The notes: a model not told the origin generated them from the letters alone. Shown: positions 6,196 to 22,729, counted from the stretch's first letter. The stretch is DNA of 64,000 nt from an uncultured Anaerococcus sp. (GCF_943908415.1 NZ_CALTSY010000004.1:10144-74143), one strand, 5' to 3'. Translations and numbers: made by a program.

Positions 6196-7053
6196 TTAAT
6201 CTACAATCAAATATGCTACTGCGTATATCTTTGGTCCAACATGGACTGCTACAACCGGTCCTGCTGGTGATTCAAATGTTCCCAAAGCATTTTCTTCTAA
6301 GTCAGATAATCTGTCTTTGGCTTCATCTAAAATACTATAATCATCAGCATATAAGTAAGCTATATAATATTCTTTAGCTCCATCAAGTTCTTCTCTTATC
6401 TTTTTTTCCACAGCAGGGTATGAGTTTTTTCTACTAGATTTTAATTTATATAGATTGAATTCTCCCTTTCCATTTATAGACATAAAGGGTTTTAATTTTA
6501 GCTTAGTAGATACCTTACTAGCCGCTTTACCTAATCTACCACCAGCCTTTAAATACTTTAAACTATCTATCCAACCGATAGCATTGGAATTGCCAACCAC
6601 GTGATTTACTCTTTCAATTATTTCATTAAAATTCAGACCTTTATTTAATAAATCATTGGCATACATCACCAAAAGGCCTTGATTAATAGTGACTGTTCTA
6701 CTATCTATAAATCCTATATCTAGCTCATTATTATCAGCAAGTTTTGCATTTGCTATAGTGGAGGATAGATTGGACCCCATGCCTATAAATATGACCTTAT
6801 CATATCCATCCTCTCTTATATTATTAAACATTTCACTAAAGTCTTTAGGACTTGGCGATGCAGATTTAACTGTAAAGTCTTCATCTTTTTCATCTAGCTT
6901 AAACATGTCATATGAGCTAATATCTATACTATCCTTATAATACTTTCCATCTATAATCACATATAGGCTAATAACGTAAATATTATTTTCTTTAACATAA
7001 TCATCTGGTAAATTAGCTACGGTATCAGTCATCAATGCAATTTTTTCTATCAT
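6196..7053 (-). CDS. DegV family fatty-acid-binding protein
   Basis: 285 aa with the DegV/EDD fold pattern (IALMTDT...). Confidence 0.85.
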   Translation of the reverse strand: MIEKIALMTDTVANLPDDYVKENNIYVISLYVIIDGKYYKDSIDISSYDMFKLDEKDEDFTVKSASPSPKDFSEMFNNIREDGYDKVIFIGMGSNLSSTIANAKLADNNELDIGFIDSRTVTINQGLLVMYANDLLNKGLNFNEIIERVNHVVGNSNAIGWIDSLKYLKAGGRLGKAASKVSTKLKLKPFMSINGKGEFNLYKLKSSRKNSYPAVEKKIREELDGAKEYYIAYLYADDYSILDEAKDRLSDLEENALGTFESPAGPVVAVHVGPKIYAVAYLIVD

Positions 7054-7066
7054 AGTTACTCCATTA

Positions 7067-7921
7067 TCAATCTAATTTAAATATACCAAAGCCATATAGT
7101 CCAGGCCCTGTATTTGCTCCAAGAGTTGGAGATATTTGTATCTTAAAATATTGGCGAGCATTTGAGATTCTATCAGATAATTTATCCTCAAGTTTCTCTA
7201 TGCCTTCTTCATAACCACCATGAGCTATGAAAATATAATAGTCTTTTACATTAGATAGTTCTTTTTCAGCTATCTTCTTAAGTTCGTTTAAAACTTTTCT
7301 TTCTCCTCTGGCTACCTTTAAAATCTTAAAGGCTCCTTCTAGTGGATTTACAGTTATAATAGGTTTTACAGATAAGGCATCCCCTATTTTTCCAAAACTA
7401 CGAGGAACCCTACCCCCTTCTACTATATATTTGAATGAATCCAGAGTAAAAAACACTTTTGAATCATTTTTCTTTTGTTCTAGTTTTTCTATAATTTCAT
7501 TAAAGCTCAATCCATCCTCTATTAACTTACTGGCATAGACTGCAAATAGACCTTCTGCCATTGTTAAATTGGATGAATCAAAAACATAGGTTTCTAAATC
7601 ATCTAGCTTTGTCATATTCATCAAATTATAAGTGCTTGAAAATTTAGATCCAAGAGTAATAACTATAACCTTATCATATCCATCTGCTTTAATTTCTTCA
7701 TACTTTCTTATAGCATCCCCAGGAGATGCAGTACTTGTTTTTGGAAGACTATTATTTTTCCTAATCCAATCATAAAATTGATCAGAGCTTATCTCTTCTC
7801 TATCTTTAAAATATTCATTATCCAAATTCACATATAGGGATAAAAAATATATATTAAGTTTCTTCAATAAGTCCGCATCTATATCAGATGCTGAATCTAC
7901 AAGGATTGCAATTTTTTCCAT
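7067..7921 (-). CDS. DegV family protein (tandem paralog)
   Basis: 284 aa; ~30% identity by eye to the adjacent DegV. Confidence 0.85.
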   Translation of the reverse strand: MEKIAILVDSASDIDADLLKKLNIYFLSLYVNLDNEYFKDREEISSDQFYDWIRKNNSLPKTSTASPGDAIRKYEEIKADGYDKVIVITLGSKFSSTYNLMNMTKLDDLETYVFDSSNLTMAEGLFAVYASKLIEDGLSFNEIIEKLEQKKNDSKVFFTLDSFKYIVEGGRVPRSFGKIGDALSVKPIITVNPLEGAFKILKVARGERKVLNELKKIAEKELSNVKDYYIFIAHGGYEEGIEKLEDKLSDRISNARQYFKIQISPTLGANTGPGLYGFGIFKLD

Positions 7922-7984: not shown

Positions 7985-8761
7985 TTAGTCATTAATATCT
8001 ATGGTCATCTTTTGATTTTGCTCATAAATAGCTCTTACTTCTGTGTGTGGATATTTATGTTCATTTTTAAATTTAATTGAGATATCTTCATTAGATCCAA
8101 AATGCATAGGGAAAAATACTTGAGGCTTAACTTCTTTTATAAATATATCAGCTCCCTTATAGTAGTTTTCTTCAAGTCTATTGTCTACTGGGAAAAAGGC
8201 TATATCTATATTCTCTTTCTTAATTTTATCAATTTCCATCATAAAGTCACTATATTCTTTTTGCATAGTGGATTCATCGTTACTTTTCCAAGCCCAGTAA
8301 TTTAAATCTCCTGCATGGAATATGCTTATTCCATCTATATATAACAATATAGATATACCCTGATCTGTCGAACCAAAAGTTTTAATTTTAAGTATAGAAC
8401 CATTTTTAAGTTTCATTTTGTATACTTGATTTTCCCTAAAGAAATGTACATTTGGTGAAGAGTAAAGTCTCTTAAGCTGATCCATTGAAAGCTTATTATC
8501 TCTTATATAAATTATATTTTCATTCTTAGCTAGTTCCCCTATATCAGAACTTAATATATAAGTCTTATTCTCCATATCAGGAAATTTTAATATCTCAGAA
8601 GTATAATGGTCATCATGACCATGACTTGCTATAAATATCACTTCTTTATCTTCTGGGATGTTTAGCATTCCCTTGTAATAGTCAAATATTATAAATAAAT
8701 CTTTTGTCTCTACTGTATAACAACTATGGTATACGTAGCTAATAGTAATTTTATCTTGCAT
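7985..8761 (-). CDS. MBL-fold metallo-hydrolase
   Basis: HGHDDH motif (ASHGHDDH) and beta-lactamase fold spacing. Confidence 0.75.
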   Translation of the reverse strand: MQDKITISYVYHSCYTVETKDLFIIFDYYKGMLNIPEDKEVIFIASHGHDDHYTSEILKFPDMENKTYILSSDIGELAKNENIIYIRDNKLSMDQLKRLYSSPNVHFFRENQVYKMKLKNGSILKIKTFGSTDQGISILLYIDGISIFHAGDLNYWAWKSNDESTMQKEYSDFMMEIDKIKKENIDIAFFPVDNRLEENYYKGADIFIKEVKPQVFFPMHFGSNEDISIKFKNEHKYPHTEVRAIYEQNQKMTIDIND

Positions 8762-8839: not shown

Positions 8840-9319
8840 ATGAAAAAAGAAATAAAAACAAATGCCATGAGAACCCTAGATAAACTAAATATTGAATATG
8901 AACATATTGACTCTGGTTATAATGGAAAATTTATATCCTCTGTTGACTTATCAAAGAAAACTCATCAAGATATAGATTTAATTTATAAGACTCTAGCTAC
9001 TATTTCAAATGAAAAAGATATATATATTTTTGTAATACCTGGTGCAGCAAGTATTGATTTTAAGAAAGCTGCTAGATCCATTGGTGTTAAAAAACTAGAA
9101 ATGTTGCCACTTAAAGATCTAAAACCTAATGTCGGCTATGAAAGAGGGGCTACTACTTCTCTAGCTATGAAAAAAGATTATCCAGTTATAATAGATGAAA
9201 GTGCTTCTTCTATGGACTTTATAAAGGTTTCAGCTGGCAAAGTTGGCCATAGTATAAAGATAAATCCTAATGATTTAGCAAGGGCCAATGGTGGCCAATT
9301 TTTTGATGTGATCCAATGA
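8840..9319 (+). CDS. ybaK: Cys-tRNA(Pro)/Cys-tRNA(Cys) deacylase YbaK
   Basis: YbaK/ProX fold motifs (MRTLDKLNIEYE..., FVIPGAASIDFKKAARSIGVKKLEMLPLKDL). The start was chosen at MKKEIKT, which has an RBS. Confidence 0.75.
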   Translation: MKKEIKTNAMRTLDKLNIEYEHIDSGYNGKFISSVDLSKKTHQDIDLIYKTLATISNEKDIYIFVIPGAASIDFKKAARSIGVKKLEMLPLKDLKPNVGYERGATTSLAMKKDYPVIIDESASSMDFIKVSAGKVGHSIKINPNDLARANGGQFFDVIQ

Positions 9320-9927
9320 ATATAAGTGTAGAAAAGTCTGCTAACAAGACTAATTTAATCTTTCCAAATGATAGTAAAAATAAAAGATTGAAGCTTATGG
9401 TAATCTTTTCTCCGATTTTTATAGCTTGCTTCGATAATGGAACTTATGAGCTTGAATTTTTAAAAAAGACCATAGATAAATCAAAATTCTCTTATGGACT
9501 ATATCCTGAATTTTTTAACGATTTTGATATTATAAGATATAGAAAATCTTATGAAGGCTATGAAATTGTAGAAGACATTTTTCTAAATAAAGATAATAAA
9601 ATAGTATTTACTATAAATCCTATGGATGATTTATATATAAAAGCATTAGTCAGCCTCATTGATAAACTAATAATAGATGATAAGTCCAATAACTACTTTA
9701 TAGATTATTTTGATAAGATGAGAGATGATATAGTAATAAATGGTAGAAGGTCTATCATAGCAAATGGTATTAAAGGATTCTACCTTTCTAAGTATGTATT
9801 AGTCTGGATGATAGATTTATGCAATTATATAAAAAATAATAATCCTGATATCTACCCGGATGTATTGCCCATATATGAACTTTCAAGCAATCTAAAAACT
9901 ATAAGAACAAAAAAATCTCCTAGCTAA
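9316..9927 (+). CDS. hypothetical protein (translationally coupled to ybaK)
   Basis: 203 aa with an ATGA start/stop overlap with ybaK. No recognisable family. Confidence 0.5.
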   Translation: MNISVEKSANKTNLIFPNDSKNKRLKLMVIFSPIFIACFDNGTYELEFLKKTIDKSKFSYGLYPEFFNDFDIIRYRKSYEGYEIVEDIFLNKDNKIVFTINPMDDLYIKALVSLIDKLIIDDKSNNYFIDYFDKMRDDIVINGRRSIIANGIKGFYLSKYVLVWMIDLCNYIKNNNPDIYPDVLPIYELSSNLKTIRTKKSPS

Positions 9928-9952
9928 GCTAAGAGATTTTTTAACTTATATT

Positions 9953-11650
9953 TTATGCTTTTTTGATTTCTTCTATTAGAGCTGGTACTACTTCGTGGAA
10001 GTCTCCTACTATACCGTAATCACAGTTTTTAAAGAATGGTGCACTTTCATTATTATTGATTGCAACTATTGTTTTAACATCAGTAATTCCTTGTAAGTGC
10101 TGTACTGCTCCTGATATTCCTACACCAATGTATAAGTCACCTTTGAATTTTTGTCCTGATAGTCCAATATATCTATCTAATGGTACATAGCGTTTTACCT
10201 CAGCTATTGGACGAGAGCTTCCTACTGATGCTCCTGTTTCTTTAGCTAATTCCATAATAACTTCTTTGTTTTGTTCTTCGCCTATACCCATACCAAAGGC
10301 AACTACCCTATCTGAGTCTTCGAAAGCATAGTCTGGGTTAACATCTTTTTTATCAAAAGTATATCCATCTGCCTTTAATGCTTCAACTAATTTTTTAGCT
10401 GATTCTTTTGGATCACCTTTAAATATTTCTTTCTTTCTATCTCCAACTATTGATTTTTTAGGTTTTCTTTGTATCTTGCCTGTTCCTTCACTACTAGACT
10501 TTTCTGGTCTTGGAAGTATATGGCTTGCAATTACAACTCTCATTATTTGGTTTGTACCTTCATAGATTTGTGTAATCTTAGAATCTCTGTAGTGTCTTTC
10601 TACATCTACACCTTTAATAAAGCCTGAACCACCATATAATTGTAGGGCATCTGAAGTAACCTTATCAGCTAAATCTGATGCATAAAGTTTTGCCATTGCC
10701 GCATCTTTACCATAGCCTTTTTCGTGGTTTTCTTTCTTATCTGCTGCATCATATACTAAAAGTCTAGCTGCCTTTATTTGTGTAGCCATATCAGCTAACA
10801 TAAATTGAGTATTTTGGAATTGAGCAATAGATCTACCAAATTGTTCACGTTGGATAGTGTAATCTTTAGCTGATTCATAAGCTCCTTGAGCTATACCTAA
10901 AGCTTGAGCAGCTATACCGATTCTACCACCATCTAAGATCATCATAGCTTCTTTGAATCCTTTGCCAAGTTCACCTAATAAATTTTCTTTAGGAACTTTA
11001 ACATTATCAAAATGAAGCTCTGCTGTAACTGAAGATCTTATACCTAGCTTGTCATATGGTTCTGAGAATGTAAATCCTTCAAAGTCCTTATCAACTATAA
11101 ACTGAGATATGCCGTGATTACCCTTGCCTGGTTCAGTAATTGCTGTTACAAGATAAGTTTGAGCATAAGGGGCATTGGTAATATAAATCTTTTTACCATT
11201 TAGTAGATAGTAATCTCCCTTATCAACAGCTGTAGTTTCTGTGCCAGCTGAATCTGATCCTGCATTATCTTCTGTAAGACCAAATCCACCTAAAGATCTA
11301 CCATCTAATAGTGGTCTTAGATATTTCTCTTTTTGTTCATCTGTACCCCACTCATTAATACCCCATGTACCTAAGGATGTATGAGCAGATACTATTACAC
11401 CAACACCACCATCAACTCTAGAAAGTTCTTCTACAGCTACAGCATAGTGTTTTTGACTAAGTCCAGCACCACCCCATTCTTCAGGAAAAGGAATGCCTAA
11501 AAGACCAAGCTCTCCCATTTCCTTTACTATATCTACAGGAAATTCCTTAGTTTGGTCTAATTGAAATGCTATTGGTTTTACTTTCTTTTCTGCAAAATCT
11601 CTAACATATTGTCTAAATTCTTCTATATCTTTTGGTAAATTATAAGCCAT
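9953..11650 (-). CDS. acyl-CoA dehydrogenase fused to a C-terminal EtfA-like FAD-binding domain
   Basis: Residues 1-~380 are ACAD (compare bcd). Residues ~420-565 align closely with the C-terminal domain II of the EtfA at 16815-17819 (SVGSSRP...IGISGAIQHL...DYGIVGD..EVVPAL). Confidence 0.8.
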   Translation of the reverse strand: MAYNLPKDIEEFRQYVRDFAEKKVKPIAFQLDQTKEFPVDIVKEMGELGLLGIPFPEEWGGAGLSQKHYAVAVEELSRVDGGVGVIVSAHTSLGTWGINEWGTDEQKEKYLRPLLDGRSLGGFGLTEDNAGSDSAGTETTAVDKGDYYLLNGKKIYITNAPYAQTYLVTAITEPGKGNHGISQFIVDKDFEGFTFSEPYDKLGIRSSVTAELHFDNVKVPKENLLGELGKGFKEAMMILDGGRIGIAAQALGIAQGAYESAKDYTIQREQFGRSIAQFQNTQFMLADMATQIKAARLLVYDAADKKENHEKGYGKDAAMAKLYASDLADKVTSDALQLYGGSGFIKGVDVERHYRDSKITQIYEGTNQIMRVVIASHILPRPEKSSSEGTGKIQRKPKKSIVGDRKKEIFKGDPKESAKKLVEALKADGYTFDKKDVNPDYAFEDSDRVVAFGMGIGEEQNKEVIMELAKETGASVGSSRPIAEVKRYVPLDRYIGLSGQKFKGDLYIGVGISGAVQHLQGITDVKTIVAINNNESAPFFKNCDYGIVGDFHEVVPALIEEIKKA

Positions 11651-11830
11651 TTTAACTCCTTAAACATAAATTTATAATAAATAATACAAACTGTAAAATT
11701 GTTTGCCTAATATTATTATACCCACTTTTTTGCAAACTATCTAAATTATGTAAAGAAATTTATAAAGGTATAGTATTATATGTATTTTCAAGACTAATAA
11801 TGAATTTTTAAAATTAAATAGAGAGGTAAT

Positions 11831-12306: not shown

Positions 12307-13647
12307 CTATTTATTAGAATTTCTCCAAATTCCTAATTTATCTGCTTCTTTTATAAGTTCATCCCTATTATCTGGGTGGGCAAGGCTAATTAAAGCGTCT
12401 GTTGCTTGCCAGGTTGATAATCCCTTAAAGTTCTTAATACCTTGTTCTGTAGCTATATAGTGTGTGTTACTTCTAACAGCTGTAGCTTGAGTACCTGGCT
12501 TAAATGTTGGAACTATATTTGATATTCTATTGCCTTCTTTATCAACTCTTGAGGATTTAAGTGCTACTATTGAGCGTCCACCCTTAGATCTATAAGCACC
12601 AAGGATAAAGTCTAGAGCTCCACCAGCACCAGAAATATGTCTAGTACCTACTGTTTCTGAAGAAATTTGTCCCCATAGATCAACTTGCATAGCTGTATTT
12701 ATTGATACAAAATTATCCAAAGATGCGATAATATCTACATCATTTGCATATCCTACTGGTACAGCCATCAACTCTTCGTTGTGGTCTATATAATCATAAA
12801 GCTCTTGACTACCTGCAGCAAAGGCATAAGCTTGACGACCTATATCTCTGTTCTTTTTCATACCTGTAATGCGTCCAGCCTTAGCCATCTCAACGAAAGC
12901 ATCTACGTACATTTCTGAATGAACTCCTAAATCCTTAAGGTCTGACTTAGCAATTTCAGATCCTATAGCATTTGGAAGACCACCTATGCCTATTTGTAAG
13001 CAATCTCCATCTCTTAGTAAGCCTACTACATGCTCAGCAACTTTAAGGTCTTCTTCGCCAAACTTAGCTTTTCCAAGAGTTAGCATATCGTAATTAGCTT
13101 CATAAATGTAGTCTACATCTTTTATATTGATATAGTTTAGATATCCACCTAAAGCTACCGGTACATTTTCATTTACTTCTAAGATTACCTTATCTGCATT
13201 TTTAAATGTTTCCCAAGCGTGACTTGCAGATAAACCAAAGTTGAAGTTACCATTTTTATCCATTGGTGATACTTGCATAAGTGCTATGCTAGCTTTATCT
13301 GCATTTTCATTTATATATCTACCTATTTCACTATATTTAACTGGTATAAAATATGCACTATGATCGCGTCTATTTACAAGTGCTCTTTCAGTTCCTGATG
13401 AGTGCCATGAATGGTAAATAAAGTGCTCTCCTGTTGTGTCTGCATCACCTATAGCTAATTGATAAGGGATTACTCCTCCTCTAATTTTTACATCATGAAA
13501 GTCATTTACTCTTTTAGCTAAAGCTTCATCAAAGGCTTTTGGAGTTAATGCACACCAGCCTAGATCTATCCAATCTCCATCTTTAACTAAGTTAACAGCT
13601 TTATCTACAGTTATAAGCTTTTGCTCATATTCTTTTTTAAAATCCAT
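12307..13647 (-). CDS. butyryl-CoA:acetate CoA-transferase (acetyl-CoA hydrolase/transferase family)
   Basis: 446 aa. Resembles the Cat1/But/4-hydroxybutyrate CoA-transferase family, and sits in a butyrate context. Confidence 0.8.
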   Translation of the reverse strand: MDFKKEYEQKLITVDKAVNLVKDGDWIDLGWCALTPKAFDEALAKRVNDFHDVKIRGGVIPYQLAIGDADTTGEHFIYHSWHSSGTERALVNRRDHSAYFIPVKYSEIGRYINENADKASIALMQVSPMDKNGNFNFGLSASHAWETFKNADKVILEVNENVPVALGGYLNYINIKDVDYIYEANYDMLTLGKAKFGEEDLKVAEHVVGLLRDGDCLQIGIGGLPNAIGSEIAKSDLKDLGVHSEMYVDAFVEMAKAGRITGMKKNRDIGRQAYAFAAGSQELYDYIDHNEELMAVPVGYANDVDIIASLDNFVSINTAMQVDLWGQISSETVGTRHISGAGGALDFILGAYRSKGGRSIVALKSSRVDKEGNRISNIVPTFKPGTQATAVRSNTHYIATEQGIKNFKGLSTWQATDALISLAHPDNRDELIKEADKLGIWRNSNK

Positions 13648-13785
13648 ATAAACCTCTCAAAATTTTAAAATCGTTTTCTTTTATAAATTTATTATAACAT
13701 TGTTGATAATAAATATCTACAATAAATAAAAACTTAACATATTTTTATACTAAGCCTTATACTTAAAGTATAAAAATAATCTCCC

Positions 13786-13822
13786 AAATTTTTTATTCGG
13801 GAGATTATTCGTTATTTTAGTG
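13786..13822 (-). terminator. intrinsic terminator after thl
   Basis: 11-bp stem AATAATCTCCC/GGGAGATTATT followed by a T-run on the minus strand. Confidence 0.55.
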
Positions 13823-13831
13823 ATATCCTAA

Positions 13832-15016
13832 TTATCTTTCAACGATAATAGCAGTACCCATTCCACCACCTATACATAATGTTGCAAGACCTCTTTTTGA
13901 GTCTCTTTTTTGCATTTCATAAAGTAAGGTTGTAAAAATTCTAGCTCCTGATGCTCCAATTGGGTGACCAAGTGCAATAGCACCACCGTTTACGTTTACA
14001 ATATCAGTATTTAAACTTAATTCTTTGATAACTGATAATGCTTGAGCTGCAAATGCTTCGTTAGCTTCGATAAGATCTAAGTCTTCTAATTTTAGATCAC
14101 CTTTTTCTAAAGCTTTTCTAACTGTTGGGATTGGGCCTGTACCCATGATTGCTGGGTCTACACCTTCTGTTGCATATGAAACTATAGTTGCTAGTGGAGT
14201 AACACCTAATTCTTTAGCTTTTTCTTCACTCATTACAACTAAAGCAGCAGAACCATCGTTTAGACCAGATGCATTTGCTGCAGTTACAGAACCACCATCT
14301 CTTTTGAATGCTGGTTTAAGGCCAGAAATACCTTCAGCTGTAACACCTTCTCTGATGTGTTCATCTGTATCTACAACTGTAACATTGCCTTTTCTATCTT
14401 TAATTTCTACAGGAACTATTTCATCTTTGAATCTACCTTCTGCACGTGCTTTTTCAGCTCTATTTTGACTTTCTGCAGCAAGTTGATCTTGTTCTTCACG
14501 AGTAAGACCGTATTTTTCTACTATGTTTTCAGCTGTCATACCCATGTGGTAGTCATTGAAAGCATCCCAAAGTCCGTCTTTGATCATCTCATCGACAACT
14601 TTTTTGTCTCCCATTCTAGCTCCCCATCTCTCATCATCTAATAGATATGGAGCATTAGACATAGATTCTGTACCACCAGCTACGATTATATCAGCATCTC
14701 CTGCTTTAATCATTTGAGCTGCTACTGATACTGATCTTAAGCCTGATCCACAAACAATATTAACTGTCATAGCTGGTTTTTCTTTAGGGATTCCAGCATC
14801 TATAGAAATTTGTCTAGCTACGTTTTGGCCTTGTCCTGCTTGAAGTACACAACCAAATACTGTTTCATCAACATCTTCTGGTTTAATTCCTGCTCTATTG
14901 ATAGCTTCTTTTACTGCAGTTACACCTAAATCTTTTGCAGATACTGATTTTAAAGCTCCGCCATAAGAACCTACTGGTGTTCTTGCTGCACTTGCTATTA
15001 CTACTTTTCTAGTCAT
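13832..15016 (-). CDS. thlA: acetyl-CoA C-acetyltransferase (thiolase)
   Basis: 394 aa with thiolase active-site motifs ([22 protein letters not shown]). Confidence 0.9.
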
Positions 15017-15062
15017 TTATTATCCTTCCTTTAATCTTTTATAATTAATTGTCTAATCTATC

Positions 15063-15905
15063 TTATTTGCTGTAGTCGTAGAAGCCTTTACCAGATTTTC
15101 TACCTAATTCACCAGCTGCAACTTTTTGTCTAAGAAGCACTGGAGCAGCATATTTATCATTACCAAAGGTATCTTTAAAGTAATCCATAACACTGAGTAT
15201 TATGTCTAGTCCAATAAGATCTGCTAATTCTAAAGGTCCCATTGGGTGGTTTGCACCAAGTTTCATTGCTGTATCAATATCTTCTGGTTTTGCAAGTCCT
15301 TCTTGAAGTACATAGATACCTTCAGAAACCATTGGGATAAGAATTCTGTTTACTACAAATCCTGGAGCTTCTTTTACTTCTACTGGTGTTTTACCAATTT
15401 CTTCAGTAATTGATTTTACTTTTTCTACAGTTTCATCGCTTGTTGTAATACCTTTTATAAGTTCTACAAGTTTCATGATTGCTGCTGGGTTAAAGAAGTG
15501 CATACCTATAACTTTATCAGGTCTATTTGTAGCTGCTGCTATTTCTGTAATAGAGATTGATGAAGTGTTTGAAGCAAGTATTGTATCTTCTTTACAAAGT
15601 TCATCTAATTCTTTGAATATAGATTTTTTGATTTCTGGATTTTCACTTGCAGCTTCAACTATTAAATCACAGTCTTTAAGTTCATTTACATCTGTAGTGA
15701 ATGTAAGTCTTCCTAGATATTCATTCTTTTGATCTTCTGTGATTCTTTCTTTTGCTACAGATTTTTCAAAAGATTTTGTTATTATAGATTTACCTTTATC
15801 AACAAATTCATCTTTGATATCTCTAACTACAACATCGTATTTCTTGCTTGCAACTTCAGCAATGCCAGCACCCATTGTACCTGCACCAATTACACCTATT
15901 TTCAT
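15063..15905 (-). CDS. hbd: 3-hydroxybutyryl-CoA dehydrogenase
   Basis: 280 aa with N-terminal GAGTMG Rossmann fold, a 3HCDH family member. Confidence 0.9.
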   Translation of the reverse strand: MKIGVIGAGTMGAGIAEVASKKYDVVVRDIKDEFVDKGKSIITKSFEKSVAKERITEDQKNEYLGRLTFTTDVNELKDCDLIVEAASENPEIKKSIFKELDELCKEDTILASNTSSISITEIAAATNRPDKVIGMHFFNPAAIMKLVELIKGITTSDETVEKVKSITEEIGKTPVEVKEAPGFVVNRILIPMVSEGIYVLQEGLAKPEDIDTAMKLGANHPMGPLELADLIGLDIILSVMDYFKDTFGNDKYAAPVLLRQKVAAGELGRKSGKGFYDYSK

Positions 15906-15916
15906 CTTATCTCTCC

Positions 15917-16696
15917 TTATTTGTTTTGAAATTCAGCTTTTTCTTTGTTGATAAAAGCTTGTGTTCCGGTTTTCATATCTTCAGTTGAGAAAATTAATCC
16001 AAAGTTGTTTTCCTCAATATATAAAGCTGTGTCTATATCAGCTTGAGCACCCTCATTTATAGCTGATTTAGAAAGTCTTACACCTATAGGAGCTTTGCTT
16101 GCGATTTGATTTGCCAATTCATTTACTCTATTATCAAGTTCTTCTGGCTCAACAACATCTTGTACAAGTCCTATTTCATAAGCCTTGTCTGCCTTTATAT
16201 TTTCAGCTGAGTAAATTAAATACTTAGCCCATCCTTGTCCTACAAGTCTTTGTAATCTTTGAGTTCCACCAAATCCCGGGATTAGACCAAGACCTACTTC
16301 AGGTTGACCAAATAATGCTTTAGAACTTGCAATTCTAATATCACAGCTCATAGCTAGTTCACATCCACCACCTAAAGCGAAACCGTTTACCTCTGCTATA
16401 ACTGGGATTGGTAAGCTTTCAATTTTTCTAAATACATCTATACCAGTTTTTGAAAAGTCCACTGCTCCTAAGGTATCAAGTTTTGACATTTCTTTTATAT
16501 CAGCTCCTGCTATGAAAGATCTGCCACCACCAGTTATTATAAGTACTCTTAAGTCTTTATTTTCAATTACCTCATCAAGTACCTTATCTAACTCACCTAA
16601 AACTTCAGAATTTAATGCGTTAAGTGCATCAGGTCTATCCATGGTTATTTTAGCAATATATCCATCAGTATCATACTTAATAGTATTATAGGTCAT
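15917..16696 (-). CDS. crt: short-chain enoyl-CoA hydratase (crotonase)
   Basis: 259 aa in the crotonase fold (GGGCELAM). Confidence 0.85.
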   Translation of the reverse strand: MTYNTIKYDTDGYIAKITMDRPDALNALNSEVLGELDKVLDEVIENKDLRVLIITGGGRSFIAGADIKEMSKLDTLGAVDFSKTGIDVFRKIESLPIPVIAEVNGFALGGGCELAMSCDIRIASSKALFGQPEVGLGLIPGFGGTQRLQRLVGQGWAKYLIYSAENIKADKAYEIGLVQDVVEPEELDNRVNELANQIASKAPIGVRLSKSAINEGAQADIDTALYIEENNFGLIFSTEDMKTGTQAFINKEKAEFQNK

Positions 16697-16814
16697 AAAT
16701 TCCTCCTAACATCACTCTTAAGATGATTGGTATAAGCTAGCATTTTGCTTATTTGATTTGAAATAATGCATAACTTATTAGCTTATACCTATATCTTAAT
16801 TACTTTTGAAACTT

Positions 16815-17819
16815 TTATTTACCTTTTTTTTCTCTAATTTTTTCAGTTAATGCTGGAACAACTTCAAATAAATCGCCTACTATACCATAGTCTGCTACAG
16901 TGAAGATTGGTGCATCTGGATCTTTATTTATAGCTATTATAGTATCACTAGCTCCTATACCAGCCAAGTGTTGGATAGCTCCAGAAATTCCTATTGCAAT
17001 GTAAACTTTAGGTCCTACAGTTGTACCTGATTGTCCAACTTGGTGAGAGTGTGAAATCCATCCTTCATCTACTAATGGACGAGATGATCCTACTGAACCT
17101 TCAAGTGCATCTGCTAGGTCTTCAATTAACTTAAAGTTAGCTGAATCTCCAAGTCCACGTCCACCTGATACGATGTATTCAGCAGCTGTTAAGTCTACAT
17201 CATCTCCCTCATCGCGAGGTATGAAGTCAAGTATTTTTGTTCTAACTTCTCCAGTGTATTCGATTTCTTCTGAGATTTCTTCTATATTCTCTTTTTGATT
17301 TTCTTCTGGCTTAGTAAATACACCAGGTCTTACAGTACCCATTTGTGGTCTGTTATCTGGAGATAAGATTTGAGCCATTAAGTTTCCACCAAATGCTGGT
17401 CTTGTCCACTTAACATCACCTGTTTCAAAGTCTACATCTAATTCTGTACAGTCTGCTGTAAGTCCTGTACCAAGTCTTGATGAAACTCTAGGTCCTAAGT
17501 CTCTACCATTTTGTGTTGCACCAATTAAGATAACATTAGGGCTATGTTTTTCAACAAGTTTACAAATAGCATTTGTATAAACATCAGTGTTGTATTCTTT
17601 GTAAGTTTCACCTTCTACAGAAATCACCTTATCAACACCATATTTTTTAACTTCTTCGCGAGCTTTTTCAACGTTTTCGCCAACAAGTACTGCTACTAGG
17701 TCTTCTTTTAACATATCAGCCATTTTTCTACCTGGATTCATTAGTTCCAAGCCGACATTTAATGCTGAACCATCTTCTTTTGTTTCAACAAATACCCAAA
17801 GATTTTTATTTTCTGACAT
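16815..17819 (-). CDS. etfA: electron transfer flavoprotein alpha subunit
   Basis: 334 aa with the EtfA FAD domain. Confidence 0.9.
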   Translation of the reverse strand: MSENKNLWVFVETKEDGSALNVGLELMNPGRKMADMLKEDLVAVLVGENVEKAREEVKKYGVDKVISVEGETYKEYNTDVYTNAICKLVEKHSPNVILIGATQNGRDLGPRVSSRLGTGLTADCTELDVDFETGDVKWTRPAFGGNLMAQILSPDNRPQMGTVRPGVFTKPEENQKENIEEISEEIEYTGEVRTKILDFIPRDEGDDVDLTAAEYIVSGGRGLGDSANFKLIEDLADALEGSVGSSRPLVDEGWISHSHQVGQSGTTVGPKVYIAIGISGAIQHLAGIGASDTIIAINKDPDAPIFTVADYGIVGDLFEVVPALTEKIREKKGK

Positions 17820-17828
17820 GATTCCTCC

Positions 17829-18638
17829 TTAAATTAGCTTCTCATCAGCCAAAGCTGCAATTAACTTATCTACAGCTTCTTCAGGCTCCATATTTTCATA
17901 TATTTCCCCAGCTTTTTGGATATCTGGTGCATATGATTTAGCTACTCTTGTAGGAGAACCTTTTAAGCCTATTTTTGACTCGTCAATTGTGTCAGCCATA
18001 TCTTCAAAAGTCACTTGCTCAATTTCAGCTTTTTTAGCTTTTAATTTATCTTTTATTTTAGGATATCTTAATTCGATATCTTTATATTTTGTAAATGTTA
18101 CAAGTGCTGGCACTACTGATTGTATGTTTCTTGCTCCACCTTCTGCTTCTTGTAAAACTTTTATTCCTTCATCATTTAATTCAACTGTGTATCCACGTGT
18201 TACTTGTGGTAAACCTAATAGTTCAGCAACTTCTGGTCCTACTTGAGCAGTATCACCATCTATAGCTTGCATACCACAGAAGACTAAATCTGGTTCGCCT
18301 TCTTCTTTTGCAACTGTCTTAATAGCATTTGATAGGATGTAGCTTGTAGCAAGTGTATCAGATCCACCGAATTTTCTATCTGTTACTAAATAAGCTTTAT
18401 CAGCTCCAACAGCTAAACAATCTCTTAACATAGATTCTGCTTGATTTGGTCCCATTGATATAACAATTATTTTAGTATCAGGGTCATTATCTTTAATTCT
18501 TAAAGCTTGCTCTAAAGCAAATGCGTCATAAGTATTTAATATACTTGGAACACCTTTTCTAACTAAAGTATTTGTTACAGGATCAATCTTAATTTCATTT
18601 GTATCCGGTACTTGCTTTGCACATACAAAAATGTTCAT
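17829..18638 (-). CDS. etfB: electron transfer flavoprotein beta subunit
   Basis: 269 aa of EtfB. Confidence 0.9.
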   Translation of the reverse strand: MNIFVCAKQVPDTNEIKIDPVTNTLVRKGVPSILNTYDAFALEQALRIKDNDPDTKIIVISMGPNQAESMLRDCLAVGADKAYLVTDRKFGGSDTLATSYILSNAIKTVAKEEGEPDLVFCGMQAIDGDTAQVGPEVAELLGLPQVTRGYTVELNDEGIKVLQEAEGGARNIQSVVPALVTFTKYKDIELRYPKIKDKLKAKKAEIEQVTFEDMADTIDESKIGLKGSPTRVAKSYAPDIQKAGEIYENMEPEEAVDKLIAALADEKLI

Positions 18639-18668
18639 TTTTTCTCCTTTTCTTAAACCTATTTACAA

Positions 18669-19805
18669 TTATCTTAATAAACTACCAGAAACTACCATAA
18701 GCATTACTTCTGATGTTCCTTCATAGATTTGTGTTATCTTAGCGTCTCTCATCATTCTTTCAACTTCATATTCTGCTGAATATCCATATCCACCGTGAAG
18801 TTGTACAGCTTCTGTTGTAACATCCATTGCTACTTTTGCTGCTTTATATTTTGCGGTTGCTGCTGCTACAGTGTAGTTTTCACCGTTATCTTTTTGTGTA
18901 GCTGCATAATATACTAAGTTTCTAACAGCTTCTATTTCTATTGCCATTTCAGCTAGTTTAAATTGTGTATTTTGGAAGTTTGCAATTGGTCTACCAAATT
19001 GTTGTCTTTCTTTAACATATTTAATTGTTCTTTCTAAAGCTCCTTCAGCAATACCTAGTGCTTGAGCTGCAACACCGATTCTACCACCATCAAGTGTTTG
19101 CATTGCTATCTTAAATCCTTTACCTTCTTCTAGAAGTAAGTTTTCTTTTGGAACCTTACAATCTTTAAAGATAAGCTCTCTTGTTGAAGAACCTTTGATT
19201 CCCATTTTATCTTCTATAGCACCAGTTTCAAATCCTTCAAAGTCTTTTTCAACTATAAATGCTGAAATACCTTTAGTTCCTTGTGATTTATCTGTCATAG
19301 CCATAACTATATAAGTATCTGCATAACCTGCATTTGTTATAAATACTTTTGAACCATTAAGTACGTAGTGATCTCCGTCTAAAACAGCTACAGTTTTTTG
19401 TCCTGCTGCATCTGTACCAGCATCTGGTTCTGTAAGTGCGAATGCTCCTATTGCTTCACCACTTGCTAAAGGAGTTAAGTATTTTTGTTTTTGTTCTTCT
19501 GTACCGAACTTGTTGATACAATCTGCACATAAAGAAGTATGAGCTGATATAATTACTCCAGTTGTTCCACAAGCTTTAGATAATTCTTCAACCGCTAAGA
19601 TATATGTAAGTGTATCTAGACCTATACCACCATATTCTTCAGCAAAAGGAATACCAAAAAATCCAAGTTCTTGCATCTTCTTAACGTTTTCTTCTGGGAA
19701 TTTATGTTCCTTATCTACCTCAATTGCCATTGGTGCAACTTCTTTTTGTGTGAAGTCTCTAAACATTTCCCTCATCTCGATTTGTTCATCAGTTAGTTTA
19801 TACAT
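18669..19805 (-). CDS. bcd: butyryl-CoA dehydrogenase
   Basis: ACAD family. The start was chosen at MYKLTDEQ, which has an AAAGGAGA RBS; the ORF-track start at 19835 lacks one. Confidence 0.9.
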   Translation of the reverse strand: MYKLTDEQIEMREMFRDFTQKEVAPMAIEVDKEHKFPEENVKKMQELGFFGIPFAEEYGGIGLDTLTYILAVEELSKACGTTGVIISAHTSLCADCINKFGTEEQKQKYLTPLASGEAIGAFALTEPDAGTDAAGQKTVAVLDGDHYVLNGSKVFITNAGYADTYIVMAMTDKSQGTKGISAFIVEKDFEGFETGAIEDKMGIKGSSTRELIFKDCKVPKENLLLEEGKGFKIAMQTLDGGRIGVAAQALGIAEGALERTIKYVKERQQFGRPIANFQNTQFKLAEMAIEIEAVRNLVYYAATQKDNGENYTVAAATAKYKAAKVAMDVTTEAVQLHGGYGYSAEYEVERMMRDAKITQIYEGTSEVMLMVVSGSLLR

Positions 19806-19881
19806 ATTATCTCCTTTAATCATTTTCGTTAACATTTATTATATACCCAATTGCTTAGGCTATAATCTATCAACCACTTTC

Positions 19882-19899
19882 TTGTTACAAATATAACAA
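19882..19899. promoter_or_regulatory. Rex-like operator (TTGTTACAAATATAACAA) overlapping the bcd promoter
   Basis: 18-bp inverted repeat matching the clostridial Rex consensus TTGTTAAnnnnTTAACAA at 6/7 positions in each half-site. It overlaps the -10 region ~50-65 nt upstream of bcd, with TTGACA 16 nt upstream. Confidence 0.5.
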
Positions 19900-20161
19900 T
19901 AAAATTGTCTTTTGTCAAGTTTATTTGATTATTTTATTTTACAAAATGACTTTCAAGTTAAGATGTTAACACAGATAACAAATACGTTAATTATTTGTTT
20001 TATATGCAATATCTTTTTTATTTTAGAAAATGTTTGCCTTTTTTATAGGTTATTAGTTTATCATAATAAAAAATATAAAATATTATAGACATAGTAGTTT
20101 TTTATTTTATTATAAGCGAATTTCTTTTTGGATTAGTCCAATTATATTTTAAGATAAAATT

Positions 20162-20190
20162 TTTACAAACTATTTTGTTTATGCTATAAT
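20162..20190 (+). promoter_or_regulatory. sigma-A-type promoter for the FAD dehydrogenase/lactate module
   Basis: TTTACA, 17-nt spacer, TATAAT, ~55 nt upstream of the ATG at 20244. Confidence 0.45.
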
Positions 20191-20243
20191 GAAAACGAAA
20201 TCACGAAGGATTTCATAAATTTGTTTAAAATCTAGGAGGAATT

Positions 20244-21665
20244 ATGACAGATTACAACAAAATTAATGACGACATTATTTTACAAATAGAAGATAGTGTT
20301 TCCGGCAATGTTTACGTCGGAGAAGAAATTAATGAAGATTTTTTCCATGATGAAATGCCTATATATGGTTCAGGTATTCCTGATGCTTTAGTAGATGTAA
20401 AATCAACAGAAGAAGTTGCTGCAGTAGTTAAAATCTGTAACGAAAATAAAATTCCTGTATTAGCAAGAGGTGCTGGATCAGGCTTAACTGGTGCCGGTGT
20501 TGCTATGAGTCAAGGTGTCATGATTAATATGCAACCTATGAATCAAATACTTGAATATGATGAAGATAATATGGTTGTTCGCGTTCAACCAGGTGTATTC
20601 CTTAACGACTTGGCAGAAGATTGCCTATCAAAAGGTTACCTATATCCACCAGATCCAGGTGAAAAATTTGCAACTCTAGGTGGAAACGTATCAACAAATG
20701 CAGGTGGTATGCGTGCTGTTAAATACGGAACTACTAGAAACTATGTAAGAAGTATGGAAGTTGTACTACCAACAGGCGAAATCACAAACTTTGGAGCAGT
20801 TGTAAGTAAGTCTTCAACAGGTTATGACTTAAAAGACTTAATGATCGGAAGTGAAGGAACACTAGGTATAATCACAGAATTAACTCTAAAAATTGTACCA
20901 GCTCCAAAAGCAACAATTTCATTAATAGTACCTTTTGAAAACTTAGATGACTGTATTTCTACAGTTCCAAAATTATTCAAAAACAATTTAAATCCACAAG
21001 CTATAGAATTTATGGAAAGAAAAATCGTCCTAGCTTCAGAGAAGTACATAGGTAGAGAAACTTTCCCTAAAAACTTAGATGGAGTAGATGCTAATGCTTA
21101 CCTACTTATCACATTTGATGGCGACAATGAAGACGAATTATATGATGTTCTTGAAAGAGCAGCAGAAATATTAGTTGAAAACGGAGCTATCGATTGTCTA
21201 GTAGCTGATACACCAAATGCTATAAAAGATGCATGGGCTGCAAGAAGCTCCTTCCTAGAAGCTATAGAAACTCAATACGAATTATTAGACGAATGTGACG
21301 TAGTAGTTCCAATAACAAAAATAGCTGAATATGTAAACTTCGTAAATGCAGAAGCTGAAAAATACATGTTTGATGTTCAAAGCTTTGGTCACGCTGGTGA
21401 TGGTAACCTTCATATTTATACTCTTTCAAATGAAGTAGATAAACATGATGAGTTTGTTGCTGAAGTTGATAAATTCATGGATGTAATTTATCAAAAAGCA
21501 TATGATCTAGGTGGTAAAATCTCTGGTGAACACGGAATAGGCTATGGTAAATTAAAATACTTAAAAGGATTTGAAGGGGATATAAATACTGACCTTATGA
21601 AAGGAATCAAAAAAGTATTCGATCCAAACCTAATACTTAACCCAAATAAAGTTATTGGTCTATAG
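20244..21665 (+). CDS. FAD-binding oxidoreductase, GlcD/D-lactate dehydrogenase family
   Basis: 473 aa with an FAD_binding_4 domain and a FAD-oxidase C-terminal domain. Confidence 0.8.
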   Translation: MTDYNKINDDIILQIEDSVSGNVYVGEEINEDFFHDEMPIYGSGIPDALVDVKSTEEVAAVVKICNENKIPVLARGAGSGLTGAGVAMSQGVMINMQPMNQILEYDEDNMVVRVQPGVFLNDLAEDCLSKGYLYPPDPGEKFATLGGNVSTNAGGMRAVKYGTTRNYVRSMEVVLPTGEITNFGAVVSKSSTGYDLKDLMIGSEGTLGIITELTLKIVPAPKATISLIVPFENLDDCISTVPKLFKNNLNPQAIEFMERKIVLASEKYIGRETFPKNLDGVDANAYLLITFDGDNEDELYDVLERAAEILVENGAIDCLVADTPNAIKDAWAARSSFLEAIETQYELLDECDVVVPITKIAEYVNFVNAEAEKYMFDVQSFGHAGDGNLHIYTLSNEVDKHDEFVAEVDKFMDVIYQKAYDLGGKISGEHGIGYGKLKYLKGFEGDINTDLMKGIKKVFDPNLILNPNKVIGL

Positions 21666-21683
21666 AAATAAAAGGAATATATT

Positions 21684-22031
21684 ATGAATTATTTAAAAGA
21701 ATTCGTAATCCTTTGTGCGTGTTTACTATTAGGCTCTTTAACAAGAAAATTAATTGACTTCCCTATTCCTGAAGCTGTGTATGGTATGATTTACCTATTC
21801 ATTGCTTTAAGGTTTAACATACTCAAGCCAGAAGAAATTGAAAAAACTTCAAATGGTATATTAGCAAACTTAGCCTTCCTATTTGTACCAGTTGGAGTTG
21901 GTATAATGGCAAATTATGAAGTAATAGAAGGTAGAATATTAAAATTATTAGTAATAGTTTTAATAGGAACTGCGGTAACCATGGGAGTAACAGGTGTTAT
22001 TGTCCAAGGTCTTCAAAGGAGAAAACAATGA
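21684..22031 (+). CDS. lrgA: CidA/LrgA family membrane protein
   Basis: 115 aa, four predicted TM helices, paired with LrgB. Confidence 0.75.
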   Translation: MNYLKEFVILCACLLLGSLTRKLIDFPIPEAVYGMIYLFIALRFNILKPEEIEKTSNGILANLAFLFVPVGVGIMANYEVIEGRILKLLVIVLIGTAVTMGVTGVIVQGLQRRKQ

Positions 22032-22729
22032 ATTTGATATTTGATAGTACCTACTTTGGTATAATCCTATCTTTTCTAGCCTTTGAAGTTGGAAAACGGA
22101 TAAATAGTAAAGTAAAAAATCCTGTTGCGAATCCCCTATTAATCGCTATACTTTTAGTAATAGCTTTTCTAAAAGTAACTGGTATACCTTATGAGCACTA
22201 TAAATTAGGAGGAGACTTTATAGCCTTCTTCATAGCTCCAGCAACAGTTGCAATGGTTTTAGACTTATATATAAATCTAGATTCTTTGAAAAAAAATATA
22301 ATCCCAATACTAGTGGGTGTTGTTGTTGGATCTATAGTTGCTATGCTCTTAGCTATATTTGTATCTAAGGGACTTGGACTTAAAGAAGATTTAGTCGTTT
22401 CTTTGGTACCACAGTCTATAACTACAGCTATAGCAATATCACTAACAGAAGAATATAACGGTATAGTTGCCCTAACTGCTATAATAGTTGTCTTAAGAGG
22501 GGTTATAGGTGCTGCTATTGCACCAGTAATACTAAAAGTATTTAAAATTACTGATCCTGTTGCACAAGGAGTAGCTATTGGTACATCTGCCCACGCTGTT
22601 GGAACTAGCGAAGCTAGAAAGATGGGACAAATCCAAGGGGCGATGTCTGGATTATCAATTGCCATAGCTGGTATTGTAACAGTTGTACTAATGCCATTAG
22701 CAATGTTAATTGTAAATTCAGTATTCTAA
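22028..22729 (+). CDS. lrgB: CidB/LrgB family membrane protein
   Basis: 233 aa polytopic membrane protein with a 4-bp overlap with lrgA. Confidence 0.75.
   Translation: MNLIFDSTYFGIILSFLAFEVGKRINSKVKNPVANPLLIAILLVIAFLKVTGIPYEHYKLGGDFIAFFIAPATVAMVLDLYINLDSLKKNIIPILVGVVVGSIVAMLLAIFVSKGLGLKEDLVVSLVPQSITTAIAISLTEEYNGIVALTAIIVVLRGVIGAAIAPVILKVFKITDPVAQGVAIGTSAHAVGTSEARKMGQIQGAMSGLSIAIAGIVTVVLMPLAMLIVNSVF

What the first reader, a model, noticed from the sequence alone, without database searches (positions are those of the whole stretch)
9953..11650. Acyl-CoA dehydrogenase covalently fused to an EtfA domain-II (alpha-FAD) module
The 565-aa protein is a complete ACAD followed by a Lys-rich linker and a ~150-aa domain that aligns closely with the C-terminal FAD-binding domain of the stand-alone EtfA 6 kb away. 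There is no EtfB partner adjacent. In bifurcating Bcd-Etf complexes, this alpha-FAD domain swings between the EtfB bifurcating FAD and the dehydrogenase FAD. Tethering it to an ACAD would hard-wire that shuttle. A hotdog thioesterase and a CoA-transferase flank the gene. This architecture is uncommon and, to my knowledge, not functionally characterised.
Basis: seen in the sequence. Interest (0 to 1): 0.6.

Follow-up and report, generated by a model that had tools for sequence, protein, structure and literature searches.

The report
Rubredoxin-less butyryl-CoA:oxygen oxidoreductase subunit paralogue
The gene is real and encodes a butyryl-CoA dehydrogenase fused to the flavin-carrying swinging domain of an electron-transfer flavoprotein; it is a stripped-down relative (no rubredoxin, no adjacent oxygen-reducing partner) of an enzyme shown in 2024 to burn butyryl-CoA with oxygen in anaerobes, not a new electron-bifurcation device.

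Summary
The 565-aa ORF (9953-11650, minus strand) is a genuine fusion, not an artefact. It has a complete acyl-CoA dehydrogenase (ACAD), a disordered Lys/Glu-rich tether, and the EtfA FAD domain (domain II). About 60 protein clusters from independent Anaerococcus assemblies share the architecture, and both domains are under strong purifying selection.

The architecture is not uncharacterised. ACAD + EtfA C-domain + rubredoxin is "BCR". BCR forms an α4β4 complex with a flavodiiron protein (FDP) to give butyryl-CoA:O2 oxidoreductase (BOOR) in Fusobacterium nucleatum (Bystrom & Wolthers 2024). The window protein belongs to a rubredoxin-less paralogue clade of BCR.

Every orthologue lineage examined outside the window's own group sits divergently beside a class-A FDP. 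In the window's lineage (Anaerococcus nagyae group) the gene has moved, with its promoter, to the end of the butyrate operon and has no FDP neighbour.

One new anatomical point: part of the "linker" is a relic of the EtfB C-terminal arm. The fusion therefore carries a whole domain II.

Most likely function: it oxidises butyryl-CoA and passes electrons through the tethered α-FAD directly to an FDP encoded elsewhere, which reduces O2. The bifurcation reading is poorly supported.

The parts
9953..11650 (-). Complete gene, 565 aa plus stop: ACAD, tether, EtfB-arm relic and EtfA domain II in one reading frame
   Evidence: ORF list; Pfam domains; same architecture in 60 clusters
10514..11650 (-). 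Acyl-CoA dehydrogenase module (residues 1-379) of short-chain/butyryl-CoA type; catalytic Glu364 lies in the YEGT motif
   Evidence: Pfam N/M/C domains. 55% identical to the window Bcd. The AF2 model matches Bcd of A. fermentans (4l1f_A) and C. difficile (5ol2_C) at TM 0.95-0.96 and 52-53% identity. E364 is invariant.
10433..10513 (-). Flexible Lys/Glu/Ser-rich tether (residues about 380-406), variable in length and sequence among orthologues
   Evidence: AF2 pLDDT below 50 for residues 386-397; indel-rich linker alignment; highest dN/dS of the three regions, 0.12-0.23
10367..10432 (-). Relic of the EtfB C-terminal arm (residues about 407-428, KEIFKGDPKESAKKLVEALKAD): a β-strand plus a helix that completes domain II
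   Evidence: hhalign of the linker profile against an EtfB-arm profile gives probability 90.8% and P 1.2e-6. None of 200 column-shuffled controls reaches the real score. In an HMM search the best non-self hits among 952 ORFs are the two EtfBs, at their extreme C-termini. AF2 predicts strand 408-410 and helix 414-427 at pLDDT 88-94.
9956..10357 (-). EtfA domain II (residues about 432-565), the α-FAD-binding module
   Evidence: Pfam ETF_alpha, 82 bits. 42% identical to the window EtfA. PDB EtfA chains match at 68-98 bits and no fused chain exists in the PDB. R480, S498, Q517-H518 and D550 are conserved.
11715..11743 (-). Promoter-like site (TAGATA-17-TATAAT) for a monocistronic transcript
   Evidence: Consensus scan, 10 of 12 matches. 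The -10 GGGTATAAT block is conserved in L005, L012 and L011.
11687..11706 (-). Inverted repeat GCAAAC-N9-GTTTG between the -10 hexamer and the ribosome-binding site: a candidate operator or 5'-UTR hairpin that travelled with the gene
   Evidence: It occurs once in each of window, L005, L012 and the FDP-paired L011, always upstream of the fusion gene
9910..9942 (-). Intrinsic-terminator-like hairpin 11 nt after the stop codon
   Evidence: Terminator scan: 15-pair stem followed by a T-run

Best explanation
The gene encodes a rubredoxin-less paralogue of BCR. BCR is the butyryl-CoA-oxidising subunit of butyryl-CoA:oxygen oxidoreductase (BOOR).

Proposed mechanism:
1. Inferred from homology: the ACAD module oxidises butyryl-CoA (or another short acyl-CoA) to the enoyl-CoA on its own FAD.
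2. Inferred from anatomy: electrons pass one at a time to the α-FAD of a complete domain II, made of the EtfB-arm relic and the EtfA C-domain. A disordered tether of about 25 residues holds this domain to the ACAD.
3. Inferred from the gene neighbourhood of orthologues: the α-FAD hands electrons directly to the FMN of a class-A flavodiiron protein, with no rubredoxin iron relay. The flavodiiron protein reduces O2 to water.

In the window's lineage the gene, with its promoter and operator-like repeat, was moved from its divergent FDP partner to the 3' flank of the butyrate operon. Any FDP must therefore be supplied in trans. In A. nagyae the only FDP seen lies beside the 641-aa BCR paralogue, about 190 kb away.

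The physiological role would be an O2 vent. It would regenerate crotonyl-CoA for the bifurcating Bcd-EtfAB encoded 6 kb away, as proposed for BOOR.
For: Family and precedent:
- The next-closest proteins (64% identity, 641 aa) have the Pfam architecture ACAD + ETF_alpha + Rubredoxin. An FDP gene follows them directly.
- That architecture and pairing is the published BCR-FDP = BOOR system (PMC12288474 section 8; PMC12528894; bioRxiv 10.64898/2026.07.15.738679).

Orthologue context:
- Rubredoxin-less relatives sit divergently next to a 404-406-aa class-A FDP with the HxExDH motif. This holds for the 67-82%-identity orthologues L001, L007-L011, for the divergent ~49%-identity A. murdochii-type loci L013-L021, and for L023-L025, found by linker-HMM hits in loci centred on an FDP.
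- L009 has the tandem order FDP | Rd-less | Rd-type | FDP.
- In an NJ tree the window, A. nagyae and L012 form a trio nested inside the FDP-paired Rd-less clade, sister to FDP-paired L011.
- The promoter-proximal repeat is shared with L011.

Integrity of the protein:
- Catalytic Glu364 and the domain II FAD residues are invariant.
- Within the relocated trio dN/dS is 0.05-0.06 for the ACAD and 0.04-0.09 for domain II.
- Domain II is complete: EtfB-arm homology and a confident AF2 strand plus helix.

Rubredoxin iron looks dispensable in this genus: 55 of 60 Rd-type clusters have a Cys-less Rd-like tail yet remain FDP-coupled.

A. nagyae AP031484.1 carries both the relocated gene and a BCR-FDP pair.
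Against: - There is no FDP anywhere in the 64-kb window (tblastn).
- The dedicated divergent FDP appears to be missing from A. nagyae. No FDP cluster at 53% identity or more maps to its 1.89-Mb contig. This evidence is indirect.
- No biochemistry exists for any rubredoxin-less form.
- The direction of catalysis, the substrate and the direct α-FAD-to-FMN step are all inferred.
- The location beside the butyrate operon could equally suit a reductive role.
- The coordinates of the structure model could not be inspected, so flavin-flavin geometry is untested.
Confidence: 0.55

Rival explanations
1. The tethered domain II collects electrons from the bifurcating β-FAD of the separately encoded EtfAB base. 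It delivers them to the fused ACAD, making a hard-wired crotonyl-CoA reductase arm of a bifurcating complex.
For: - The gene lies 6 kb from bcd-etfB-etfA.
- The ACAD is 55% identical to that Bcd.
- Domain II is structurally complete, including the EtfB arm.
- The stand-alone EtfB carries the DGDTAQVGP motif seen in bifurcating Etfs. The motif is read from the sequence; its meaning is from general knowledge of group-2 Etfs.
Against: - The window EtfA is full length (334 aa) with its own domain II, so the docking site on the base is already occupied.
- Orthologues never sit next to etfB or etfA. They sit next to an FDP.
- The characterised family member runs oxidatively to O2 (PMC12288474).
- Adjacency to the butyrate operon is confined to one recent sub-lineage.
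Confidence: 0.1
2. An orphaned enzyme that now uses a different acceptor. It could act as a self-sufficient acyl-CoA oxidase, with α-FAD reacting with O2 to give superoxide or H2O2. Alternatively it could donate to a free rubredoxin, flavodoxin or another oxidoreductase instead of an FDP.
For: - The FDP neighbour is lost, and the dedicated FDP is apparently absent from the closest genome.
- Strong purifying selection persists on both domains after relocation.
- ACADs are known to leak electrons to O2 (cited in PMC12288474 section 4).
Against: - The closest genome still has an FDP that natively partners a BCR paralogue.
- No candidate small redox protein lies beside the gene; its neighbours are a hotdog thioesterase and a 203-aa ORF with no Pfam family.
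Confidence: 0.22
3. A decaying remnant or assembly artefact. Either a frameshift or stop-loss joined two genes, or the gene became non-functional after losing its partner.
For: None beyond the unusual architecture and the low-complexity linker.
Against: - The identical architecture occurs in 60 clusters from independent assemblies, including complete genomes.
- dN/dS is 0.04-0.09 for both domains within the relocated trio at dS about 0.8-1.2.
- The gene has an intact promoter, ribosome-binding site and terminator.
Confidence: 0.02

Closest known systems
BCR (butyryl-CoA reductase) subunit of BOOR, butyryl-CoA:oxygen oxidoreductase, F. nucleatum FN1424 / FNP2073 locus (Bystrom & Wolthers 2024, Biochemistry 63:2352; reviewed in PMC12288474)
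   Same: [quoted passage not shown]
- The conserved arm-like segment precedes domain II in canonical Rd-type relatives too (P0123, P0056).
- Orthologues of the window protein are paired with a class-A flavodiiron protein.
   Different: - There is no rubredoxin domain at all; the protein ends at the last helix of domain II.
- The FDP is divergently transcribed rather than dicistronic in orthologues.
- In the window lineage there is no FDP neighbour, and the gene lies beside the butyrate operon.
Anaerococcus 641-aa BCR paralogue with Cys-less rubredoxin-like tail (e.g. P0074, A. nagyae / A. octavius)
   Same: 64% identical over ACAD, arm and domain II. It occurs in the same genus and in the same genome as the closest relative of the window.
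   Different: It keeps an approximately 80-aa Rd-like tail in which all four Cys ligands are replaced, and it is directly followed by an FDP gene.
Bifurcating Bcd-EtfAB complex (C. difficile 5OL2; A. fermentans 4KPU/4L1F)
   Same: The ACAD is 52-53% identical at TM 0.95-0.96. Domain II, comprising the EtfA C-domain and the EtfB C-terminal arm, is the same mobile module.
   Different: The fusion lacks Etf domains I and III, so it has no β-FAD and no NADH site. It cannot bifurcate on its own.
FixB/YdiR-type EtfA subunits
   Same: The domain II of the fusion scores best against these NCBIfam models (115 and 98.7 bits). It shares the RP(I/V)AE...(Y/W)(V/L)P.DR.IG(L)SG loop with such EtfAs (P0150, P0208).
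   Different: Those are stand-alone full-length EtfA proteins of about 300-325 aa that include domain I.

Membership tests
BCR subunit of BOOR (butyryl-CoA:O2 oxidoreductase) | N-terminal butyryl-CoA dehydrogenase domain with the catalytic base | tested here: met
   Pfam ACAD N/M/C domains; Glu364 in YEGT is invariant; the fold matches Bcd structures at 52-53% identity
BCR subunit of BOOR (butyryl-CoA:O2 oxidoreductase) | EtfA C-terminal (α-FAD) domain fused after the ACAD | tested here: met
   ETF_alpha 82 bits; FAD-contact residues conserved
BCR subunit of BOOR (butyryl-CoA:O2 oxidoreductase) | C-terminal rubredoxin domain with an Fe(Cys)4 centre | tested here: not met
   The protein ends 15 residues after DYGIVGD. 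There is no PF00301 hit, and it is classed 'noRd'.
BCR subunit of BOOR (butyryl-CoA:O2 oxidoreductase) | Gene adjacent to (dicistronic with) a class-A flavodiiron protein | tested here: not met
   No FDP in the window, nor beside the gene in A. nagyae or L012. The feature is met, in divergent orientation, in the other orthologue lineages examined.
BCR subunit of BOOR (butyryl-CoA:O2 oxidoreductase) | [quoted passage not shown] | not testable with these tools
   Needs protein biochemistry
Electron-bifurcating Etf / Bcd-Etf | EtfB plus EtfA domain I base carrying the bifurcating β-FAD and the NADH site | tested here: not met
   Only the last ~22 residues of an EtfB-like arm and domain II are present. 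There is no PF01012 (ETF) hit in the fusion.
Acyl-CoA dehydrogenase superfamily (short-chain / Bcd type) | Three-domain ACAD fold with FAD-binding and catalytic residues | tested here: met

The most novel reading that the evidence does not exclude
The rubredoxin-less form, together with the Cys-less Rd tails of its Anaerococcus paralogues, shows that an Etf domain II flavin can feed a flavodiiron protein's FMN directly. In the A. nagyae-group lineage the enzyme lost its dedicated FDP and was recruited to the butyrate locus. There it works either with a shared FDP or with a new partner. One speculative partner is the FAD-dependent D-lactate dehydrogenase encoded divergently from bcd, which would channel electrons to or from the butyryl-CoA/crotonyl-CoA couple without EtfAB. 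In addition, the family arose by collapse of an acad-etfB-etfA operon, keeping only the two pieces (EtfB arm and EtfA C-domain) that build the mobile domain.
Probability: 0.3. Interest if true: 0.6.

Novelty: new variant of a known kind. Interest (0 to 1): 0.42.

Why it matters
BOOR is a recently recognised way for butyrate-producing anaerobes to detoxify O2 while sparing NAD(P)H.

A natural rubredoxin-less version, and Cys-less rubredoxin versions, bear on whether the rubredoxin relay is needed. If these enzymes are active, the α-FAD of an Etf domain II can reduce FDP directly. That would simplify the published electron path and offer a minimal two-flavin construct for studying the swinging-domain mechanism.

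The EtfB-arm relic explains how domain II can fold without EtfB. It also suggests how the fusion arose.

For Anaerococcus, a skin, wound and urogenital anaerobe, this is a candidate aerotolerance factor linked to butyrate output.

Tried and rejected
1. Linker against the PDB by phmmer found no EtfB. Pairwise Smith-Waterman of the window's own linker against EtfB was not significant (394/5000 shuffles). It was significant only for P0074 (2/5000). Profile-profile comparison was needed.

Known carriers such as A. mediterraneensis were also missed, so the result is uninformative.

3. The FDP homologue search gives only indirect evidence that A. nagyae lacks the divergent FDP.

4. The Lactamase_B_3 protein at 7985-8761 was considered as a hidden FDP. 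It was rejected: it has an HxHxDH zinc-hydrolase motif, no flavodoxin domain and no tblastn match to FDPs.

5. The hotdog thioesterase was considered as a conserved partner. It was rejected because it is absent from all FDP-paired loci.

6. PerR- and Rex-box readings of the upstream region, done by eye, gave no convincing match.

7. The primary BOOR paper could not be read. Details of flavin semiquinones in BCR are from my memory of its abstract only.

8. Fold search of the whole model returns only ACAD chains.

Full report
**Observation**

The ORF at 9953-11650 on the minus strand is real and encodes 565 aa.
- Pfam finds the three ACAD domains (residues 8-378) and ETF_alpha (444-522, 82 bits) in one chain.
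- The ACAD half is 55% identical to the Bcd encoded at 18669-19835.
- The C-terminal half is 42% identical (E 2e-28) to residues 199-330 of the stand-alone EtfA at 16815-17819.
- The gene has its own promoter-like site (11743-11715), an AGGAG ribosome-binding site and a strong terminator hairpin (9942-9910). The upstream CoA-transferase gene has a separate terminator. The gene is therefore monocistronic.

**Not an artefact**
- Of the 120 best-scoring 90%-identity clusters, 60 have the same rubredoxin-less architecture (about 515-585 aa, nearly all 555-585, nearly all at 99-100% coverage). All named ones are Anaerococcus. They include complete genomes of A. nagyae (92% identity) and A. mediterraneensis (73%).
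- Among the window, A. nagyae and metagenomic locus L012, dN/dS is 0.05-0.06 for the ACAD, 0.04-0.09 for domain II and 0.12-0.23 for the linker, at dS about 0.8-1.2.
- The catalytic Glu364 (YEGT) is invariant in a 54-sequence alignment. So are the domain II residues that, by alignment to P. denitrificans and C. difficile EtfA, correspond to the classical α-FAD contacts. These are R480 (equivalent to human αR249, numbering from my own knowledge), S498 (αT266 position) and Q517-H518 (αQ285-H286).

**Anatomy of the "linker"**

AlphaFold2 (pLDDT 85.9, pTM 0.72) predicts residues 386-397 as disordered. It then predicts a confident β-strand (408-410) and helix (414-427), at pLDDT 88-94, before domain II proper.

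That structured piece, KEIFKGDPKESAKKLVEALKAD, is conserved through the whole family, including canonical rubredoxin-bearing members. It resembles the extreme C-terminus of EtfB (window EtfB: GEIYENMEPEEAVDKLIAALADE).
- An HMM of 117 family linkers was searched against 952 ORFs. The two EtfBs present ranked as the best non-self hits, aligned at their C-termini (E 0.013).
- An EtfB-arm profile was built from three Anaerococcus EtfBs plus 4KPU_B, 7KOE_A and 6FAH_B. Profile-profile comparison with it gives probability 90.8% and P 1.2e-6.
- The reversed profile and 200 column-shuffled profiles reach at most score 16.9, against 31.8 for the real one.

In Etf structures, domain II is built from the EtfA C-domain plus the EtfB C-terminal arm (established knowledge from the A. 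fermentans and C. difficile Etf structures). The fusion therefore carries a complete domain II, hung on a floppy tether of about 25 residues.

The order ACAD, EtfB arm, EtfA domain II is collinear with the usual gene order acad-etfB-etfA. This suggests an origin by in-frame collapse of such an operon (inference). The domain II scores slightly better against FixB/YdiR-type EtfA models than against the clostridial Bcd-type model. The ancestral operon therefore need not have been the butyrate one.

**What is known**

The next tier of homologues (64% identity, 641 aa) adds a Pfam rubredoxin domain at the C-terminus, and an FDP gene follows them directly. That architecture and pairing is the published BOOR system.
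- In F. nucleatum the fusion protein BCR consists of a Bcd domain, the EtfA C-terminus and rubredoxin.
- BCR forms an α4β4 complex with a class-A FDP. The complex couples butyryl-CoA oxidation to reduction of O2 to water.
- Sources: PMC12288474 section 8; PMC12528894; PMC12630350; Pfam architecture quoted in bioRxiv 10.64898/2026.07.15.738679. The primary paper (Bystrom & Wolthers 2024, doi 10.1021/acs.biochem.4c00279) is not held.

No structure of any such fusion is in the PDB.

**Where the window protein fits**

In an NJ tree with the Rd-type paralogues as outgroup, all rubredoxin-less proteins form one clade. In every lineage examined outside the window's own group, the gene is divergently adjacent to a 404-406-aa class-A FDP with the HxExDH diiron motif:
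- A. mediterraneensis (L001), plus L007, L008, L009, L010 and L011.
- The A. murdochii type, L013-L021.
- A. marasmi and two other loci (L023-L025) found through the FDP.

L009 shows FDP | Rd-less | Rd-type | FDP in tandem, which looks like the duplication that created the clade.

The window, A. nagyae (L005) and L012 form a trio at 89-92% identity. The trio is nested in this clade and is sister to FDP-paired L011 (82%). In all three the gene instead lies between a hotdog thioesterase and a conserved unknown ORF, just past the butyrate operon (bcd-etfB-etfA-crt-hbd-thl-but), with no FDP.

The -10 block and a unique inverted repeat (GCAAAC-N9-GTTTG, window 11687-11706) are shared with L011. The gene therefore moved with its own control region.

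A. nagyae still has a 641-aa BCR + FDP operon about 190 kb away. However, no FDP cluster at 53% identity or more to the dedicated divergent FDP maps to its chromosome. This evidence is indirect, and a genome scan meant to settle the point was swamped.

**Mechanism**

Shown here:
- two intact flavin modules;
- a complete, tethered domain II;
- membership of the BCR lineage;
- FDP pairing in orthologues;
- purifying selection after relocation.

Inferred:
- Butyryl-CoA as substrate. This rests on 52-55% identity to butyryl-CoA dehydrogenases, the location beside the butyrate operon, and the BCR precedent.
- One-electron transfer from δ-FAD to α-FAD. I recall this being reported for BCR in the abstract of the primary paper, which is unverified here.
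- Direct transfer from α-FAD to the FMN of an FDP.

The last step gains plausibility from an unexpected observation. In 55 of 60 Rd-type Anaerococcus clusters, all four rubredoxin cysteines are replaced (YVDLGSGYEY...WVSPVSGE), yet the FDP gene remains directly downstream. In this genus the iron relay thus seems to have been abandoned twice, once by ligand loss and once by domain loss.

I put 0.55 on the FDP-in-trans O2-vent model. I put 0.22 on an orphan enzyme with another acceptor or oxidase chemistry. Decay or artefact gets about 0.02.

**Breadth**

The arm plus domain II (residues 385-565) was searched against 1.84 billion representatives. Only 28 clusters scored E ≤ 1e-30, so the family is small. 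It includes other rubredoxin-less forms:
- P0122, the A. murdochii type, with the catalytic Glu changed to Asp and a deleted substrate loop.
- P0139, P0209 and P0137, from AT-rich organisms, with degenerate ACAD-like N-termini.

**Verdict**

It is wrong on novelty and on the bifurcation context.

This is a new variant (rubredoxin-less, FDP-unlinked, butyrate-locus) of a recently characterised kind. Interest is moderate. It offers a natural test of whether the rubredoxin relay in BOOR is dispensable, and a clear picture of how a stand-alone domain II was made.

Noticed in passing
L002-L004, L103-L112 (e.g. L108 = A. nagyae AP031484.1 287311-294236), proteins P0061-P0120: 55 of 60 Rd-type (about 641-aa) BCR clusters from Anaerococcus have a rubredoxin-like tail in which all four Cys ligands are replaced (YVDLGSGYEY...WVSPVSGE). 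An FDP gene still follows them directly. Only 5 clusters keep CxxC...CxxC.
   Followed up: partly
L013-L021 (A. murdochii type), protein P0122: This rubredoxin-less fusion is only about 49% identical to the window protein. It has YEGT changed to YDGS (catalytic Glu to Asp) and lacks the GLTEDNAGSD loop. It is still divergently paired with an FDP and followed by nadE. It is possibly a non-dehydrogenase or altered-substrate version.
   Followed up: partly
window 11687-11706 (-); L005 about 9946; L012 about 7948; L011 about 7944: A unique inverted repeat, GCAAACAATTTyAnnnTTTG, lies between the -10 hexamer and the RBS of the fusion gene. It is conserved between the relocated loci and the FDP-paired L011. 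It is a candidate operator or 5'-UTR hairpin, with no match to Rex or PerR consensus by eye.
   Followed up: partly
window 12307-24134: A complete butyrate operon (bcd 18669-19835, etfB, etfA, crt, hbd, thl, butyryl-CoA:acetate CoA-transferase 12307-13647) lies on the minus strand. It is divergent from an FAD-linked D-lactate dehydrogenase (20244-21665), an LrgA-like ORF (about 21683-22030), LrgB (22028-22729) and a LarA lactate racemase (22860-24134). The layout resembles the F. nucleatum lct cluster (PMC12630350).
   Followed up: no
L009 4315-11200: The tandem arrangement is FDP(-) | Rd-less 559 aa | Rd-type 641 aa | FDP 418 aa. The Rd-less copy is 75% identical to its Rd-type neighbour. It looks like a snapshot of the duplication that produced the Rd-less clade.
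   Followed up: partly
proteins P0139, P0209, P0137, P0134: These are representatives from very AT-rich organisms, with a highly degenerate ACAD-like N-terminus fused to arm-like segment and domain II (CT(R/L)PI(A/S)EELEW motif). One 344-aa protein (P0134) has a non-ACAD N-terminal region before arm and domain II.
   Followed up: no
window 9316-9927 (+): This 203-aa ORF has no Pfam family. It overlaps the tRNA_edit (YbaK-like) gene by 4 nt and is syntenic in A. nagyae and L012. Its 3' end overlaps the terminator hairpin of the fusion gene.
   Followed up: no
window 9956-10357 (-) versus NCBIfam: The fused domain II scores higher against E. coli YdiR/FixB-type EtfA models (115 and 98.7 bits) than against the clostridial AcrA-type EtfA model (91.7 bits). 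It shares its RPIAE...YVPLDRYIGLSG loop with FixB-like EtfAs (P0150, P0208). This hints that the donor Etf was not the butyrate-operon Etf.
   Followed up: no
window 6196-7921 (-): Two tandem DegV-family paralogues (285 and 284 aa) lie downstream of the Lactamase_B_3 gene. Only one DegV gene is called at the equivalent place in A. nagyae and L012.
   Followed up: no
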